Below, piece by piece: positions 7,573 through 15,811 of a stretch of DNA of 64,000 nucleotides. A model generated the notes under the pieces. That model did no database searches and was not told the origin of the DNA. It was given only the letters and a program-made list of their open reading frames with translations. This DNA comes from Promethearchaeati archaeon SRVP18_Atabeyarchaeia-1 (GTDB lineage Archaea; Asgardarchaeota; Atabeyarchaeia; Atabeyarchaeales; Atabeyarchaeaceae): assembly GCA_037308085.1 (NCBI GenBank), contig CP147779.1, positions 2,208,001 through 2,272,000 on the forward strand, read 5' to 3'. The position numbers and the translations under genes are program-made. The stretch's first letter is position 1. Each line of letters opens with the position of its first letter.

Positions 7573-7774
7573 CCAGCGCCCAGAAGCCGCAACCAGGCAA
7601 GCCTAACCTTCTTCTATTTTTTCGCGTGCCACAATAGAAGCTCGACTCCCGAACAGCGAACATGTGCCAAATTTCCAATCAATAAAGAGAATCTCTAATA
7701 AGCTAGACAGATTGCTAATTTATTGAATCGCAGAAATCGTGATCCCAGAGCCACACGCTTGGAGGAAACATGGG

Positions 7775-9091
7775 ATGCTTACCCAACTCAAAGACAGGCT
7801 TTTAGTCAAAACGGTCTTCGGGGACGTCAGTAGCCTAGAAGGCAGGGAGGTCACTGTTGCAGGTTGGGTCTATAACAAGAGGGCCCACGGCAATCTCCTA
7901 TTCATAGATCTTCGTGATGGAACGGGAATCATCCAAGTCAGTGCTCACAAGGACAAGGTGGCCAAGAAGGTCTTCGAGGATGTTGAGAAAGCCACCCGCG
8001 AGTCATCAGTCATCATAAAGGGGGTCGTGCGATCCGACAAGAGAGCGCCTGGTGGATGCGAGATTGGGCTTACAGACTTCCAGATTGTGGGCCTAGCTGA
8101 GGAGTGGCCTCTCCCCATAGATGCCGGCATCGACGTGCTTTTCGACAAGAGGCACCTCCACCTCAGGGGAGAAAAGCAGACGGCCATTATTAAGATCAGG
8201 GCCAGCGTCTTTGAAGCAATAAGAGAGTGGTTCAAGCAGGATGGTTGGATTGAAGTTCAACCACCAATGATCATCTCCGCTTCAGTTGAGGGAGGCTCAA
8301 CCCTCTTCAAGATGGACTACTTTGGGGAAGTCGCGTACCTGACGCAGAGTTCTCAGTTCTACCTTGAAGCAATGATACAAAGCATGGAGAGGGTGTACTG
8401 CCTCGCGCCAAGCTTTAGGGCAGAGAAGTCGAAGACCCCGAGGCACTTGGCGGAGTACTGGCATGCCGAAGCGGAGGCAGCATGGATGGAGCTGGATGAC
8501 ATATTGGGGGTCGAAGAGAGACTCGTTTCTCACGTCTGCCAGTTTGTGGCTGAAAAGCATGAAAAGGATCTTGGAAAGCTCGGAAGAGACCCTGCCGAGA
8601 TCGCTGATGTCAAAGCACCTTTTGAGCGCATATCGTACCGTGAGGCAATCGAGAGAATCAAGAAGAAGGGCGTTAAGATAGAATATGGAGACGACATGGG
8701 AGCCGACGAGGAACTTAGGCTCACTGAGGATCTGCTGAAACCGATGTTCGTCGTGGAGTATCCGCGGAGCCTGAAGCCCTTCTACCACTACCCGAAGCCA
8801 AGTGACCCCAGCATCGTAATGTGTGCGGACTGCGAAGCGCCTGAAGGCTATGGAGAGATAATTGGTGGGGGACAGAGAATACACGACAAGGACGCGTTGA
8901 TCCAGAGGATAGAAGAGGAGCACCTAAAGCCAGAGGACTATGAGTGGTACATCGACCTTAGAAGGTACGGGACCGTTCCACACAGCGGTTTCGGGCTCGG
9001 GGTCGACAGGCTCGTGAGGTGGATATGCAGGCTCGACCATATCAGAGCCTCGATACCCTTTCCAAGGTATCTTACCAGAAGGTACCCGTGA
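7775..9091 (+). CDS. asnS: Asparaginyl-tRNA synthetase
   Basis: OB-fold N-terminus (AGWV...FIDLRDGTGIIQ), YLTQSSQFYLE, SFRAEKSKTPRHLAEYW, EIIGGGQR, YGTVPHSGFGLG. Confidence 0.93.
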   Translation: MLTQLKDRLLVKTVFGDVSSLEGREVTVAGWVYNKRAHGNLLFIDLRDGTGIIQVSAHKDKVAKKVFEDVEKATRESSVIIKGVVRSDKRAPGGCEIGLTDFQIVGLAEEWPLPIDAGIDVLFDKRHLHLRGEKQTAIIKIRASVFEAIREWFKQDGWIEVQPPMIISASVEGGSTLFKMDYFGEVAYLTQSSQFYLEAMIQSMERVYCLAPSFRAEKSKTPRHLAEYWHAEAEAAWMELDDILGVEERLVSHVCQFVAEKHEKDLGKLGRDPAEIADVKAPFERISYREAIERIKKKGVKIEYGDDMGADEELRLTEDLLKPMFVVEYPRSLKPFYHYPKPSDPSIVMCADCEAPEGYGEIIGGGQRIHDKDALIQRIEEEHLKPEDYEWYIDLRRYGTVPHSGFGLGVDRLVRWICRLDHIRASIPFPRYLTRRYP

Positions 9092-9316: not shown

Positions 9317-10729
9317 ATGATATTGGGCCGCTCAACTGTGTCTTCTAGCAAGCACAATGCTAATGATGCTTCCAAGTTCAGCTATCGCGGGGAAGCACTG
9401 AGAGTCCTAGACTCAGCCAGTGCCGCCGAGGGTGACCTAGTCAGATTAACCACCAAGGAAGGCTCGATCTTCGAGGGTGTGCTAATGCCTCGGCAGGGAA
9501 TCTCAAGCGAGGAGAGTCACATCGTCATCAAACTAAAGAGCGGTTACAACGCAGGGGTCAGCGTCATGGAAGGGGTCAGCCTCGTCGTCTTGAAGAAGGG
9601 CTCCGGTGAGGGAGCAGGAGACGAGCGAGTAGCCACCTTGGGAGCGCCTATGCGAGTAGTCAGGGGTTTGCCTACTGTAAGCCTCTTGAGCACGGGCGGA
9701 ACGATTGCGAGCAAGGTGGATTACAGGAGCGGGGCGGTCAGCCCAGCGCTATCTGCCCAAGATCTCTACGATGTTGTCCCTGAGCTCGGCGATGTGACCA
9801 ACGTTCGCGCGGAGATTCTCTGCAATATTCTCAGTGAGAACATGACCTCTGAGAAATGGTCTATGATTGCCGACGCGATCGGTAAGCGGATCATCGAAGG
9901 CGGTCTGGATGGAGTCATAGTGGCTCATGGAACTGACACGATGCACTACACTGCAGCAGCCCTCAGCTTTGCATTACGCGGACTGCCCATTCCTGTAGTT
10001 TTGGTCGGCTCACAAAGGTCCTCGGACCGACCATCATCTGACGCCGCGATGAATCTCCTGAATTCCGCGGTGGTGGCAGGCGGCGGACCTTTTGCGGAAG
10101 TCGTCATTTGCATGCACGGGGAGATGGGCGATACATATAGCCTATGTCATCGCGGAACGAAAGTCAGGAAGATGCATACGAGCAGACGTGACGCGTTCAG
10201 GTCAGTGGGTATCAATCCGCTCGCTAAGGTGCAGGAACGGAAAGTCCAGATGCTCGTTAAGGAGTTCGTTCCACGCGATCCCAAGAGAGAGCTGGCTGTT
10301 GAAGCAAGGTTTGACGAGAAAGTCGGTCTCGTTAAGACGTTTCCGGGTATCTCAGCCGATCTAATCGACTTTTTTGTTGACAAGGGTTACCATGGTTTGA
10401 TCTTGGAGGGCACTGGTCTGGGGCACGTTCCCGAAACCGTGTACGCACCCATGAAACGTGCGATCGAGGAAGGCATCACCGTTGTAATGACCAGTCAATG
10501 CATCTCCGGTAGGATAAACATGAATGTCTACAGTACAGGGCGAGAACTCTTGGCCATGGGAGTGGTTCCCGGTGAAGACATGCTACCCGAGACTGCTCTT
10601 GTCAAGTTGATGTGGCTTCTGGGGAGAGGCGAACCCCCTGAAAAGATACGCGAGTTGATTGGAACCAATATTTCCGGCGAGATCAACCGTGTTTTGTCAA
10701 CGAAAAGTTCAACCCCCGAAATTATATAG
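9317..10729 (+). CDS. gatD: Glu-tRNA(Gln) amidotransferase subunit D
   Basis: KLKSGYNAG, STGGTIASKVDY, HGTDTMHY, GSQRSSDRPSSDA, KVRKMHTSRRDAF. Confidence 0.96.
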   Translation: MILGRSTVSSSKHNANDASKFSYRGEALRVLDSASAAEGDLVRLTTKEGSIFEGVLMPRQGISSEESHIVIKLKSGYNAGVSVMEGVSLVVLKKGSGEGAGDERVATLGAPMRVVRGLPTVSLLSTGGTIASKVDYRSGAVSPALSAQDLYDVVPELGDVTNVRAEILCNILSENMTSEKWSMIADAIGKRIIEGGLDGVIVAHGTDTMHYTAAALSFALRGLPIPVVLVGSQRSSDRPSSDAAMNLLNSAVVAGGGPFAEVVICMHGEMGDTYSLCHRGTKVRKMHTSRRDAFRSVGINPLAKVQERKVQMLVKEFVPRDPKRELAVEARFDEKVGLVKTFPGISADLIDFFVDKGYHGLILEGTGLGHVPETVYAPMKRAIEEGITVVMTSQCISGRINMNVYSTGRELLAMGVVPGEDMLPETALVKLMWLLGRGEPPEKIRELIGTNISGEINRVLSTKSSTPEII

Positions 10730-10811: not shown

Positions 10812-12760
10812 ATGGCTATTGATCACATGAAAACAGGAACAACCGTTGGCCTTGAGCTGCATCAGCAGCTTAACACCAGAGAGAAGCTTTTCTGCAGCTG
10901 TCCAACGGTTATCCGAGAAGATGAGCCTGACGTCAAGTTTAGGCGGCGGCTTCGCCCGACGCAGAGCGAACTTGGTCAGGTTGATGAAGCCGCGCTTTTC
11001 GAGTTCCATAAGGGCAAGGTCTTCGTTTACGAGATGTACAGTGAGGGGACTTGCTTACTTGAGGCAGACAGCAACTCCCGCTCGCATTATCGCGAGTTGT
11101 TGGCCTAGATGAGGAGCCCCCTCATCCTCTTAACCAGGAAGCGCTCGATGTAGCGCTGCAGATGACCTTGCTTCTGAACTCGACCCCAGTTGACGAGATT
11201 CACGTCATGAGGAAGATCGTCATTGATGGGTCGAACACCACGGGTTTTCAGAGGACAGCATTGATCTCTCTCGGTGGATACATAGAGTTCGACGGTAAGA
11301 GAATTCACATTCAGTCGATCTCACTTGAGGAGGATGCCGCAAGAAAGATCAGTGAGGCACCAGGAGAGGTCGTGTACAGGCTTGACAGGCAGGGCATACC
11401 CCTCGTGGAGATAGCCACCGCCCCTGAGATTCACAGCCCCGAAGAGGCTGAGAACATAGCCTACAGGATCGGCCAGCTTCTCCGCGCCACAGGCAAGGTG
11501 AAGCGCGGCCTTGGAACAATAAGGCAAGACGTCAACGTGTCGGTCAAGGATGGAGCGCTCGTCGAGACCAAGGGCGTCCAAGAGCTTGGACTCCTTAGCA
11601 GAGTAGTCGAACTCGAGGTTCAGCGACAGATCAGCCTCATACAAATCAGGGACGAACTCAAGAAGAGGGGAGCCAGAAAGGAAGACATCAAGGGAGATGC
11701 AACCGATGTCTCACAGGTTCTCAAGGATTCCAAGAGCAAAGTCCTGAGGAAAGCGCTGGATCAGAAGGGAGCCGTCTTAGCAACTGTATTGCCCAAGTTT
11801 GCAGGGCTGGTTGGAAAGGAGATTCAGCCAGGTAGGCGCCTAGGTACAGAGATGTCGGAGAGAGCAATCTTCAGAGGCGGAGTAGGCGGCATATTCCACT
11901 CAGACGAATTGCCAGCATACGGCATCACCGAGGAAGAGTTGCAGAAAGTGAGAGAGAAGCTGCGCTCTGCCAAGGACGATTGCGTCATCCTAGTTGCAGA
12001 CAGACCCGAGAAAGCGAAGGACGCGATTGAGGCTGTAGCTGAAAGAGCCAGAGAGGCGATTCAGCGAGTGCCAGAGGAAACTAGGGGGGCGCGGCCCGAC
12101 GGCACAAGCCAATACAGCAGACCCAGACCTGGGTCTGCAAGAATGTACCCCGAGACAGACATACCTGTGGTCCAAGTGACCCCTGACAGGATCAAGAAGA
12201 TAATGGAGGCTCTACCCGAAAGGCCTGAGAAGAAACTCGAGCGATTCATGAAGCAGTACAAGCTGAGCAAGGAACTTGCGGAGGCGATGGTCAGGTCATA
12301 CAACCTCGACCTCTTCGAGAGCATTGTGAATAAGATCAGAGTCTCACCAGTACTCGCTGCCACAACACTGGAGAATACTTGGAGATACTTAAGAAGAGAG
12401 GGCATACCTGTCGAGAACATAGGCGACGAGAGGGTTGAGGAAGTCTTCAGACAGCTGGGTTCTGGCAAGGTTGCTAAAGAGGCCATCCCCGAAATGCTAG
12501 CATTCCTCGCCAGAAACCAATCCCTGACAGTAGCTGAGGCAACTGAGCAGCTTGACATCAAGGGCGTCTCGCAGGAAGAGCTAGATCGCGTCGTCGACGC
12601 GATAATAAAGAAGAATCTGGCTCTGGTCAGGGAGAAAAGAATGGATGCGCTCAAACCCCTAATGGGAGACGTCATGAAACAACTTCGCGGCAAAGCCGAC
12701 GGAAAGAAAGTAAACGACACCCTCAAAAGGAAACTTGAAGAAGAAATAGGACGTATCTGA
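10812..12760 (+). CDS. gatE: Glu-tRNA(Gln) amidotransferase subunit E, two exons: join(10812..11067,11109..12760), 635 aa
   Basis: Exon 1 has GLELHQQL-KLFC and RRLRPTQSELG; exon 2 has EEPPH, MRKIVIDGSNTTGFQRT, LEEDAAR, RGLGTIRQDVNVS and RPGSARMYPETDIP; removing 41 nt restores CLLEADEEPPH. Confidence 0.95.
11068..11108 (+). other. 41-nt bulge-helix-bulge (BHB) intron in gatE mRNA
   Basis: Central helix AGGC(11062-65)/GCCT(11103-06), bulges AGA(11066-68) and AGA(11107-09), 9-bp intron stem CAGCAACTC/GAGTTGTTG, exon-exon stem CTTG/TGAG and TGAGGGG/CCCCTCA. Confidence 0.88.
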
Positions 12761-12936: not shown

Positions 12937-15811
12937 CTTTCCAAACTGCTAGATCGATCTCAAACCGTTCTAGTAGCCAGGTGCTGTGTGATTGCCTGGA
13001 ATTTCTTTCCAAACTACTAGGTCAATCTCAAACTCATCTATAGCGAGCAGCTTCTCTGCTATCTTAGCCTGCTTTCCAAACTACTAGGTCAATCTCAAAC
13101 GAAGCTGTAGGCCTCATTCTCCCCGTACACTATAGTGCTTTCCAAACTACTAGGTCAATCTCAAACCTGGTATTTAGCCTCCAAGTCCTTAACGATGTGA
13201 ACATCTTTCCAAACTACTAGGTCAATCTCAAACTGGTAGGACAAGGGCCTTCTCTCCCTTAATCTTGCTAGCTTTCCAAACTACTAGGTCAATCTCAAAC
13301 TCTGTAGGCCTATGATTGTCTTCTCAAAGTCACCTGCTTTCCAAACTACTAGGTCAATCTCAAACAGTGGACCACGCCTCATAGATCTCAGGAATAACCC
13401 TCTTTCCAAACTACTAGGTCAATCTCAAACACGCTTATCCGATAAGGTTCTATGAAACAAAAATCTACTTTCCAAACTACTAGGTCAATCTCAAACCGCC
13501 AGTAATCTCGAACGGGACAGGAGTGCTAACCTGGCTTTCCAAACTACTAGGTCAATCTCAAACTCAAGTGGAACTGGGACAACGAAGACAACCACAACCT
13601 ACCTTTCCAAACTACTAGGTCAATCTCAAACGGGAGTTCTCACTTTCATGGGGGAGGGTGGGACTTCACTTTCCAAACTACTAGGTCAATCTCAAACCTG
13701 CACGCCGAGAGTTGCAGTATTCACAGCCTGTACACTTTCCAAACTACTAGGTCAATCTCAAACCTGCCACAGCCCTATGCTGGGGAGGTAGTACTTGGTC
13801 TTTCCAAACTACTAGGTCAATCTCAAACAGGTTTCTCCACATATTGCTCGGCATCGAGGATGTCATCTTTCCAAACTACTAGGTCAATCTCAAACTGTCA
13901 ACGGAGACAGTCGGTGTCCCCGTGACCCAGTCTTTCCAAACTACTAGGTCAATCTCAAACGTTCACAAGATTCAGGCGATAACCCTTTAAGTTGCTGACT
14001 TTCCAAACTACTAGGTCAATCTCAAACTCGCTAGCTCCGCCGTCTCCACCTCCAGTTGAGCGTCTTTCCAAACTACTAGGTCAATCTCAAACCGTTCATG
14101 CTGTGTACGACTGTTCGATTGACAAGTATCTTTCCAAACTACTAGGTCAATCTCAAACTCGCTAGCTCCGCCGTCTCCACCTCCAGTTGAGCGTCTTTCC
14201 AAACTACTAGGTCAATCTCAAACGTTCGATCTCCTTGCAGAACCTTGAGACGTTATCACCTTTCCAAACTACTAGGTCAATCTCAAACTTAGTTGCGTGG
14301 ATCCGTTCCTGCAACCAAAGAGGCTTTCCAAACTACTAGGTCAATCTCAAACAGAAGAAGAATGAATGCCGGGTAGTGTTAGCTCTTGACTTTCCAAACT
14401 ACTAGGTCAATCTCAAACTTTGCAGAGTCCTTGCAGCCGGAATGCTTGGTACTCCTTTCCAAACTACTAGGTCAATCTCAAACTTGTTTCGGGGTTCTCC
14501 GGTATTGGTAACAAGAAGGCCTTTCCAAACTACTAGGTCAATCTCAAACGAGCATCATCTACTATATACCAAAGGTAGTTAAAGAGCTTTCCAAACTACT
14601 AGGTCAATCTCAAACGTACTACACTGGGATCTCGGCGCTGACCGGCATCTCGCCTTTCCAAACTACTAGGTCAATCTCAAACGGGCACGTTCTTTTTGCT
14701 CTGCGTTATGCGGCTACCTTTCCAAACTACTAGGTCAATCTCAAACTTTGTTCAAATGGTAGTGACGCTTTATAGGTTTATTTCCTTTCCAAACTACTAG
14801 GTCAATCTCAAACTTTATGCTGGTCGATTGCATTCCCGCCTTTGATACATCTTTCCAAACTACTAGGTCAATCTCAAACCTGCGAAGGAAGGAAGTATGT
14901 GATTTCAACATCAAGAAACTTTCCAAACTACTAGGTCAATCTCAAACTGTACTCCACACTCACCCTCATATTAATTGTATCCTCCTTTCCAAACTACTAG
15001 GTCAATCTCAAACTAGGATCTTCTCTATTTCCTGGAGCTTCTCAGCGATCTTTCCAAACTACTAGGTCAATCTCAAACGTTGTCTTCCCCCCAAAGCTAA
15101 TCAGCCTCCTTCCTGCTTTCCAAACTACTAGGTCAATCTCAAACTAATAATGCGGGTCGGTAATCTTATGATACCATTCTTCTTTCCAAACTACTAGGTC
15201 AATCTCAAACTCTGTGTCTCTCTTCCATTTGGCAGCGTACTTAGATCTACTTTCCAAACTACTAGGTCAATCTCAAACAGGAACTCGGCTGGCAATTCGA
15301 TACGAAGGTATCCGCTTTCCAAACTACTAGGTCAATCTCAAACCATAGGTACTCGTATCGTAATTGTATAGGTAGACGGTCTTTCCAAACTACTAGGTCA
15401 ATCTCAAACCCATAGCCGCTGACGAAACTTATGTTTCCCGAGTCGAGCTTTCCAAACTACTAGGTCAATCTCAAACGTGGTAGGAGACGATGAAATGAGT
15501 GATTTGCACCTAACGCTTTCCAAACTACTAGGTCAATCTCAAACGAATAGGACGATGAATGCGGCTGCGCCGACCGTGATATACTTTCCAAACTACTAGG
15601 TCAATCTCAAACGAGATGAAGCAAGTCTCAGGAATCTACAGACGGGAATCTTTCCAAACTACTAGGTCAATCTCAAACCCGTATTTCGTGTTTTCTATCA
15701 GTTGTTACTTATCGACTTTCCAAACTACTAGGTCAATCTCAAACGATACGACCATCAGTATCATAGTATTTCCCAATAGCCTCTTTCCAAACTACTAGGT
15801 CAATCTCAAAC
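12937..15811 (-). CRISPR. CRISPR array: 44 repeats / 43 spacers (manual count); repeat GTTTGAGATTGACCTAGTAGTTTGGAAAG (29 nt, minus strand)
   Basis: Exact repeats about every 66 nt; degenerate trailer repeat at 12937-12965; ...GAAAG 3' end; leader on the cas2 side. Confidence 0.98.

What the first reader, a model, noticed from the sequence alone, without database searches (positions are those of the whole stretch)
11043..11124. Canonical bulge-helix-bulge intron inside the gatE coding sequence: candidate pre-mRNA splicing of a core translation gene
Seen in sequence: gatE is split into two frames by 41 extra nt inside CLLEA-DEEPPH, and the insert carries an in-frame TAG (11106-08). The region folds into a strict 3-4-3 BHB: exon-exon stem (CTTG/TGAG, extended by TGAGGGG/CCCCTCA), central helix AGGC/GCCT, two AGA bulges on opposite strands, and a 9-bp intron stem CAGCAACTC/GAGTTGTTG. 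Established knowledge: the archaeal tRNA splicing endonuclease EndA cuts after the 2nd nt of each bulge. Here that removes 11068-11108 and joins GAG GCA G|AT GAG GAG = E-A-D-E-E, giving an intact 635-aa GatE. GatDE is the archaeal route to Gln-tRNA(Gln), so a dead gene is unlikely. BHB introns in archaeal mRNA are rare; the classic case is crenarchaeal cbf5. Inference: this lineage splices mRNA with EndA and a ligase, and other annotated frameshifted genes in the genome may be introns too. I cannot verify whether a gatE intron has been reported.
Basis: partly seen in the sequence, partly recalled or inferred. Interest (0 to 1): 0.95.

Follow-up and report, generated by a model that had tools for sequence, protein, structure and literature searches.

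The report
tRNA-type intron inside Asgard gatE
The only gene for GatE, which this wetland Asgard archaeon needs to make glutamine-charged tRNA, is interrupted by a 41-base intron of the kind normally cut out of archaeal tRNAs; similar introns sit in gatE throughout two Asgard classes, whereas the papers found here report such splicing for only one archaeal protein gene (cbf5).

Summary
gatE (window 10812-12760) is broken by 41 nt (11068-11108) that fold as a strict hBHBh' motif. Cutting after the second base of each AGA bulge restores a 635-aa GatE, with the junction on the conserved DEEPP motif.

This is the genome's only GatB/GatE-family gene and no GlnRS was found. Both exons are under purifying selection.

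The same-site intron is present in 3 of 3 species genomes of this class (Atabeyarchaeia, by inference). A second BHB intron lies 5 nt downstream in gatE in 11 of 11 genomes of another Asgard class and in one further lineage. It shows strong compensatory covariation (7 of 12 pairs, 97.5% of cells paired).

The genome encodes two EndA paralogues and one RtcB. I also confirmed BHB introns in ahcY and a RuBisCO-like gene.

No RNA evidence could be obtained, so excision is inferred.

The scan found this before on other DNA: the 41-nt gatE intron in the sister genome (e1-5461420) and an ahcY intron in this genome (e1-4831445). Published work on these genomes reports tRNA introns only.

Verdict: a real tRNA-type mRNA intron, a new member of the cbf5 kind.

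The parts
9317..10729 (+). gatD (470 aa), intact upstream partner gene of the GatDE amidotransferase
   Evidence: Pfam Asparaginase, Asparaginase_C, GatD_N
10812..11067 (+). gatE exon 1: 85 codons plus the first base (G) of the Asp codon
   Evidence: Pfam GatB_N profile positions 2-30; tblastn to intact GatE residues 1-86
11041..11048 (+). distal exon-exon helix, 5' strand (GUGAGGGG), pairs with 11118-11125
   Evidence: MFE and centroid folds; kept in the three-species consensus with one G-C to A-U compensation
11058..11061 (+). outer helix h, 5' strand (CTTG), pairs with 11110-11113
   Evidence: BHB scan: outer = 4 pairs, two of them G.U
11062..11065 (+). central 4-bp helix H, 5' strand (AGGC, exon)
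11066..11068 (+). 5' bulge AGA; predicted cut between 11067 and 11068
   Evidence: the cut position follows the BHB rule (established knowledge)
11068..11108 (+). 41-nt BHB intron; carries the in-frame TAG at 11106-11108; single copy in the genome
   Evidence: no other copy by blastn-short
11069..11077 (+). inner helix h', 5' strand (CAGCAACTC)
11094..11102 (+). inner helix h', 3' strand (GAGTTGTTG)
11103..11106 (+). central helix H, 3' strand (GCCT, intron)
11107..11109 (+). 3' bulge AGA; predicted cut between 11108 and 11109
   Evidence: the MFE pairs two of these bases instead
11110..11113 (+). outer helix h, 3' strand (TGAG, exon 2)
11109..12760 (+). gatE exon 2 (last two bases of the Asp codon, 549 codons, stop)
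   Evidence: Pfam GatB_N 45-276, GAD, GatB_Yqey; aligns to P. abyssi GatE 1ZQ1 residues 89-630, E 2.5e-168

Best explanation
A 41-nt bulge-helix-bulge (hBHBh') intron interrupts the gatE pre-mRNA. The transcript folds so that exon bases (AGGC) pair with the 3' end of the intron (GCCU), and this presents two 3-nt AGA bulges on opposite strands. The tRNA-splicing endonuclease cuts after the second base of each bulge; this genome has two EndA paralogues, consistent with the broad-specificity (alpha-beta)2 type. RtcB then joins the exons, and probably circularises the intron. The result is an mRNA for a 635-aa GatE. Shown here: the motif, exact restoration of frame and homology, conservation and covariation in relatives, purifying selection on both exons, and presence of the enzyme genes. 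Inferred: cleavage and ligation in the cell, and which enzymes carry them out.
For: (1) Strict BHB at the exact register that restores a 635-aa ORF. The exon 2 translation starts at residue 89 (D of DEEPP) of solved P. abyssi GatE. Pfam GatB_N continues from exon 1 into exon 2.
(2) The gene is needed. It is the only GatB/GatE-family gene in a complete 2.81-Mb genome, and the only Glu/Gln-RS-like gene scores 292 bits against the 425.8-bit glnS cut-off.
(3) The same-site intron is in 3 of 3 genomes of the family: 41, 41 and 35 nt. Helices and bulges are kept while the loops are unalignable, and synonymous sites are saturated (pS 0.78) with pN 0.15 in both exons.
(4) A BHB intron 5 nt downstream (D-E|T-P-P) is in 11 of 11 genomes of another class and in G108. 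Lengths are 29, 30, 31, 35 and 51 nt, and each either carries in-frame stop codons or shifts the frame. On 11 sequences 97.5% of cells pair, 7 of 12 pairs have compensatory changes, 0 of 500 shuffles reach this, and slid registers give 12-53%. One covarying pair links the third base of an exon Asp codon to an intron base.
(5) Two EndA paralogues are present, one closest to the crenarchaeal chains 3P1Z_B, 3AJV_B and 2CV8, plus one RtcB.
(6) The insert is genomic. It is in three independent assemblies, and a further DNA run covers both halves of it.
(7) Other genes of this genome are split the same way. ahcY (34 nt) and a RuBisCO-like gene (28 nt) show Pfam profile continuity across the junction, 254 to 256 for RuBisCO_large.
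Against: No spliced transcript, circular intron or peptide has been seen. The outer helix next to the 3' bulge is weak (two G.U pairs), and thermodynamic folding prefers to pair two bases of the 3' bulge. In the same-genus relative the central helix has an A.C mismatch. At site 1 only three sequences exist, so covariation there is thin: 2 compensated pairs, both in exon-exon helices. BHB-like motifs that join open frames are as common as a mirror-image decoy genome-wide, so the motif alone proves nothing; the case rests on position, homology and conservation.
Confidence: 0.88

Rival explanations
1. gatE is a split gene. The 98-aa N-terminal ORF (10812-11108) and a C-terminal protein started at ATG 11162 are made separately and assemble without covalent joining.
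For: Both ORFs exist. Split genes are known in some archaea (my knowledge, e.g. Nanoarchaeum).
Against: No ATG, GTG or TTG lies in the exon 2 frame before 11162. The C-terminal piece would therefore lack 18 residues that include the DEEPP stretch, whose two prolines are invariant in my alignment. This reading does not explain the conserved BHB, the covariation, or the in-frame 30-nt inserts with stop codons in the other class.
Confidence: 0.04
2. Translational bypassing (T4 gene 60 type): the ribosome takes off at GAC 11067-11069 and lands at GAU 11108-11110, skipping 41 nt.
For: Take-off and landing codons are both Asp in this genome and in G002, and a hairpin lies between them.
Against: No stop codon follows the take-off codon (AGC does). 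In G001 the landing codon would be AAC, which does not match GAC. At the second site, take-off GAA has no matching landing codon. The 3-4-3 geometry and the covariation of the central helix are not needed for bypassing.
Confidence: 0.02
3. Decaying pseudogene: a 41-nt insertion killed gatE.
For: The unspliced frame is broken.
Against: It is the sole GatB/E-family gene and no GlnRS was found. The insert has been retained in three species whose synonymous sites are saturated, while pN stays at 0.15 in both exons and no other lesion exists.
Confidence: 0.02
4. Assembly or sequencing artefact.
For: None specific. Contigs of one DNA run break inside the insert at 11078-11080.
Against: Five DNA runs hold 75-100% of the sampled words of the stretch. 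Two other species assemblies carry an insert at the same site. The paper describes the genome it calls Atabeyarchaeia-1 (this genome by inference) as curated and checked with long reads (PMC11291895).
Confidence: 0.01

Closest known systems
cbf5 pre-mRNA BHB intron of Crenarchaeota (Watanabe 2002; Yoshinari 2006; Yokobori 2009, PMC2738675)
   Same: [quoted passage not shown] It is removed by the tRNA-splicing endonuclease in hosts with hetero-oligomeric EndA, and it has been gained and lost among lineages.
   Different: Different gene (gatE), a different phylum (Asgard, by inference from the records' titles and PMC11291895), and two insertion sites 5 nt apart in two classes. In this genome the TruB_N part of cbf5 lies in one open frame. 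Here several protein genes of one genome carry such introns.
Non-canonical BHB introns of archaeal tRNA genes, abundant in these same genomes (PMC11291895; preprint 10.64898/2026.10.13.758758)
   Same: The same 3-4-3 motif and the same predicted enzymes. gatE introns occur in the two classes that the preprint names as tRNA-intron-rich. The assignment of my classes to those names is an inference.
   Different: The host RNA is an mRNA, so the exon half of the motif must be built from codons. Splicing also competes with coupled translation. Those papers describe tRNA introns only.
HAC1/XBP1 unconventional mRNA splicing (IRE1 plus RtcB or Trl1) in eukaryotes
   Same: Spliceosome-free excision of a short mRNA intron at structured sites, ligation by RtcB in animals, and a frame change that determines the protein made.
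   Different: The nuclease is different (IRE1 cutting stem-loops rather than EndA cutting a BHB), and the eukaryotic splicing is regulated by stress. No regulation is shown here.
Earlier notes of this scan: e1-5461420 (gatE 41-nt intron in the sister genome) and e1-4831445 (ahcY intron in this genome)
   Same: The same phenomenon, and for gatE the orthologous intron.
   Different: This report adds the second site in another class, the covariation test, the selection test, the enzyme inventory and the negative motif-first census.

Membership tests
Archaeal EndA-dependent BHB intron | [quoted passage not shown] | tested here: met
   AGGC/GCCT with AGA bulges at 11066-11068 and 11107-11109. The MFE fold gives the helix and the 5' bulge but pairs two bases of the 3' bulge.
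Archaeal EndA-dependent BHB intron | Flanking helices h (exon-exon) and h' (intron) of the strict hBHBh' form | tested here: met
   Inner helix 9 bp; outer helix 4 pairs (2 G.U) plus further exon-exon helices.
Archaeal EndA-dependent BHB intron | Cutting at the canonical bulge positions yields a functional product | tested here: met
   635-aa ORF; the junction falls on DEEPP of solved GatE 1ZQ1.
Archaeal EndA-dependent BHB intron | Structure conserved in relatives with compensatory change | tested here: met
   Site 2: 7 of 12 pairs compensated, 97.5% paired, 0 of 500 shuffles. Site 1: helices kept in 3 of 3 genomes with little covariation.
Archaeal EndA-dependent BHB intron | Host encodes the splicing endonuclease and an RtcB ligase | tested here: met
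   Two PF01974 genes and one PF01139 gene.
Archaeal EndA-dependent BHB intron | Excision seen in RNA (spliced junction, circular intron) | not testable with these tools
   No RNA run listed holds the locus.
cbf5-type pre-mRNA intron | Located in the cbf5 gene at the crenarchaeal site | tested here: not met
   The host gene is gatE. In this genome the TruB_N region of cbf5 lies in one 291-aa open frame.
Programmed translational bypass (T4 gene 60 type) | Matched take-off and landing codons, conserved, with a stop codon after take-off | tested here: not met
   Matched in G000 and G002 only, not in G001 or at site 2; no stop follows take-off.

The most novel reading that the evidence does not exclude
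mRNA splicing by the tRNA endonuclease is an old, class-wide trait of at least two Asgard classes that reaches core genes. gatE would then have acquired such introns twice independently within 5 nt, at a purine-rich GAY-GAR 'proto-splice' site. This would point to a targeted or strongly filtered way of intron arrival. It might also make GatE output depend on the same EndA and RtcB capacity that matures the heavily interrupted tRNAs on which GatDE acts.
Probability: 0.3. Interest if true: 0.9.

Novelty: new member of a known kind. Interest (0 to 1): 0.78.

Why it matters
In the papers found here, archaeal protein-gene splicing rests on one gene, cbf5, in Crenarchaeota. [quoted passage not shown] Together with the other split genes in this genome, it means that genes in pieces and enzyme-based mRNA splicing are routine in these lineages.

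Practically, gene callers truncate or split such genes, which biases completeness and metabolic inferences. It also gives a concrete, conserved substrate for testing Asgard EndA specificity, and for asking how splicing coexists with coupled transcription and translation.

Tried and rejected
RNA evidence: no RNA holder was listed for the locus. Laying two metatranscriptome contig sets and one Nanopore RNA run gave no cover. This says nothing about expression.

Motif-first census: I scanned the whole genome for BHB motifs and kept those that join open frames. I tried this with and without a codon-usage filter, and at several stringencies and length limits. The counts equalled those of a mirror-image decoy motif (1,414 against 1,453; 7 against 8 at gatE-like stringency and length <=60). 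Such a census cannot count true mRNA introns, so a homology-first census is needed.

Rfam and ARAGORN: no hits in the window.

Mobile-element idea: the intron has no second copy in the genome.

Translational bypass, split gene, pseudogene and artefact: see the rival explanations.

EndoQ candidate: I found a 54-nt BHB that joins 53 and 410 codons, but neither exon matched Pfam, so it stays unconfirmed.

The assignment to Jordiarchaeia (Freyrarchaeaceae and Jordiarchaeaceae) is an inference. It rests on a 3.6-Mb single-contig member matching the published 3.58-Mbp Freyarchaeia genome, and on a class made of exactly two families.

Phylum survey: most rows were not listed, so I did not check every one of the 400 genomes for in-frame inserts.

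Full report
**Observation.** The window lies at 2,208,001-2,272,000 of a complete 2,808,651-bp genome with 49.6% G+C. gatD (9317-10729) is followed by gatE. The gatE frame runs from ATG 10812 to TAG 11106-11108, and resumes in another frame with DEEPPHPLNQE up to 12760. Pfam places GatB_N positions 2-30 in the first piece and 45-276 in the second, together with the GAD and GatB_Yqey domains.

Removing 11068-11108 gives a 635-codon ORF without stops. The first residue of the exon 2 translation aligns with residue 89, the D of DEEPP, in the solved P. abyssi GatE 1ZQ1 (E 2.5e-168).

The unconstrained MFE fold recovers the central helix, the 5' bulge, the 9-bp inner helix and long exon-exon helices. 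It pairs two bases of the 3' bulge. Because AGA flanks both cut sites, four cut registers would give the same mRNA.

**Is it chance?** BHB-like motifs are common. Motifs with 4 Watson-Crick central pairs, at least 6 inner pairs and at least 2 outer pairs occur 1,249 times on the two strands, and a mirror-image decoy occurs 1,228 times. That is about 1.7e-6 per position-and-length pair. The gatE motif is stronger than this and sits at the one register that restores both frame and homology. The motif alone would be worthless as evidence; the coincidence with the junction is not.

**Is the gene needed?** The genome holds no other GatB/GatE-family gene. Its single Glu/Gln-tRNA synthetase-like gene scores 292 bits against the 425.8-bit glnS cut-off. 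GatDE is therefore the only visible route to Gln-tRNA(Gln).

**Organism.** The sister genome G002 is the record titled Candidatus Atabeyarchaeum deiterrae isolate SRVP18_Atabeyarchaeia-2. The paper that describes these genomes gives 2.81 Mbp for Atabeyarchaeia-1 (PMC11291895). I infer that the window comes from Atabeyarchaeia-1, a wetland-soil Asgard archaeon.

That paper reports that 92-95% of the tRNA genes carry introns, and says nothing of protein genes. A preprint of October 2026 on Asgard tRNA introns is also limited to tRNAs. My searches found no report of a gatE intron, or of BHB introns in Asgard protein genes.

**Relatives, site 1.** All three species genomes of the family carry an insert at the same position: 41 nt in G000, 41 nt in G002 and 35 nt in G001. 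No other family of the same class turned up among the relatives. The central helix, the bulges and the inner helix are kept, while the loops cannot be aligned. G001 has an A.C mismatch in the central helix and an AAA 3' bulge.

Synonymous sites between the three species are saturated (pS about 0.78), whereas pN is about 0.15 in exon 1 and in exon 2. The gene has therefore stayed functional with the insert in place.

Of the 80 best GatE loci from other species genomes, mostly Bathyarchaeia and other Thermoproteota, 77 are open upstream of DEEPP. The exceptions are the two Atabeyarchaeia and one contig end.

**Relatives, site 2.** Another Asgard class consists of two families, f7 and f18. I infer it to be Jordiarchaeia, with Jordiarchaeaceae and Freyrarchaeaceae. 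All 11 of its genomes have gatE interrupted 5 nt further downstream, between the Glu and Thr codons of D-E-T-P-P.

- Each insert is a BHB: central helix GAYG with CRTY, AAA bulges, and an inner helix of 6-11 bp.
- Lengths are 29, 30, 31 and 35 nt. The 30-nt inserts are in frame but carry stop codons; the others shift the frame.
- Removal restores the ORF in every case.
- One genome of a further family (G108) has a 51-nt BHB intron at the same place.

On the 11-sequence alignment, 97.5% of cells form pairs and 7 of 12 pairs show changes on both sides. No shuffle out of 500 reaches these values, and sliding the partner strand drops pairing to 12-53%. One covarying pair links the third base of the exon Asp codon (GAC or GAU) to an intron base. 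That is what a structure spanning exon and intron predicts.

The site 1 and site 2 introns share no evident sequence, so two gains look more likely than one intron that slid by 5 nt. This is an inference.

**Machinery.** The genome has two EndA-family genes. One (209 aa) is closest to the crenarchaeal chains 3P1Z_B, 3AJV_B and 2CV8 (E 5e-46). The other (241 aa) is divergent. There is also one RtcB.

This fits the (alpha-beta)2 architecture reported for Asgard archaea (PMC5829648; preprint). That chain B of 3P1Z is the catalytic subunit is from my memory. The site-2 motifs have no outer helix directly next to the 3' bulge, so they would need such a broad-specificity enzyme.

**Other genes of this genome.** I followed leads from earlier notes of this scan.
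- ahcY has a 34-nt BHB intron at genome 488226-488259. The AdoHcyase profile continues into the 68-codon second exon.
- A RuBisCO-like gene has a 28-nt BHB intron at 2712459-2712486 on the minus strand. The RuBisCO_large profile runs to position 254 before the intron and from 256 after it.

An unbiased count failed, because motif-first scans give as many hits for a decoy as for the real motif.

**What is missing.** Five DNA runs hold 75-100% of the sampled words of the stretch, and contigs of an independent DNA run cover both halves of the intron. No RNA run holds the locus. Excision is therefore inferred from sequence, conservation and covariation.

**Rivals.**
- A split gene making two polypeptides would lose the invariant prolines of DEEPP, because the exon 2 frame has no start codon before 11162.
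- Gene-60-type bypassing fits only two of the three site-1 genomes and none at site 2.
- A pseudogene is contradicted by the selection data and by the gene being the sole copy.
- An artefact is contradicted by three independent assemblies and several DNA runs.

**Verdict.** This is a genuine tRNA-type intron in an indispensable protein-coding gene (confidence 0.88). Mechanistically it belongs with the crenarchaeal cbf5 intron. It is new in its gene, its lineage and its class-wide conservation, and it is one of several such introns in this genome. The scan had already noted the orthologous intron in the sister genome (e1-5461420) and the ahcY intron in this genome (e1-4831445).

Noticed in passing
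window 12937 to about 15750: A large CRISPR array lies about 180 nt downstream of gatE. It has a 29-nt repeat (CTTTCCAAACTACTAGGTCAATCTCAAAC), about 44 copies and start-to-start spacing of 64-68 nt. One spacer is duplicated (13999 and 14130). The first two repeats (12937, and one near 13005) are degenerate.
   Followed up: partly
L033-L037, L045-L050, L061 (gatE of 12 other Asgard genomes): A second gatE BHB intron site lies 5 nt downstream of the Atabeyarchaeia site. It is present in 11 of 11 genomes of a two-family class and in G108. The introns of the two families share the 5' core C-K-T-R-Y-ATGTAG and look homologous to each other.
   Followed up: yes
G109, G113, G042, G120 (L057-L065): Genomes of families f23 and f19 carry two full-length gatE-like genes at 44-53% identity to the query, i.e. 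a gatE paralogue. Neither copy is interrupted at the DEEPP site.
   Followed up: no
Neither exon matched any Pfam family, so it is unconfirmed.
   Followed up: partly
window 11078-11080: Logan contigs of DNA run X4 end and restart inside the intron with a 3-nt overlap, so no single contig of that run bridges it. This could reflect low depth (3-5x) or a graph branch, possibly strain variation in the loop.
   Followed up: no
L147 (DATKLC010000154.1): A contig labelled Candidatus Krumholzibacteriaceae bacterium encodes a GatE 57% identical to the archaeal query. This is either a mis-binned archaeal contig or a bacterial GatDE.
   Followed up: no
window 7739-9091 and whole genome: A class II Asp/Asn-tRNA synthetase gene sits just upstream of gatD, and the genome has no GatB. 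The organism therefore seems to use GatDE for Gln only, and needs a direct route or another enzyme for Asn.
   Followed up: no
genome 383841-384134 (L162, L163): In the cbf5 homologue, the gene that carries the classic crenarchaeal mRNA intron, the TruB_N region lies in one 291-aa open frame. The profile match has a gap between positions 53 and 72.
   Followed up: no
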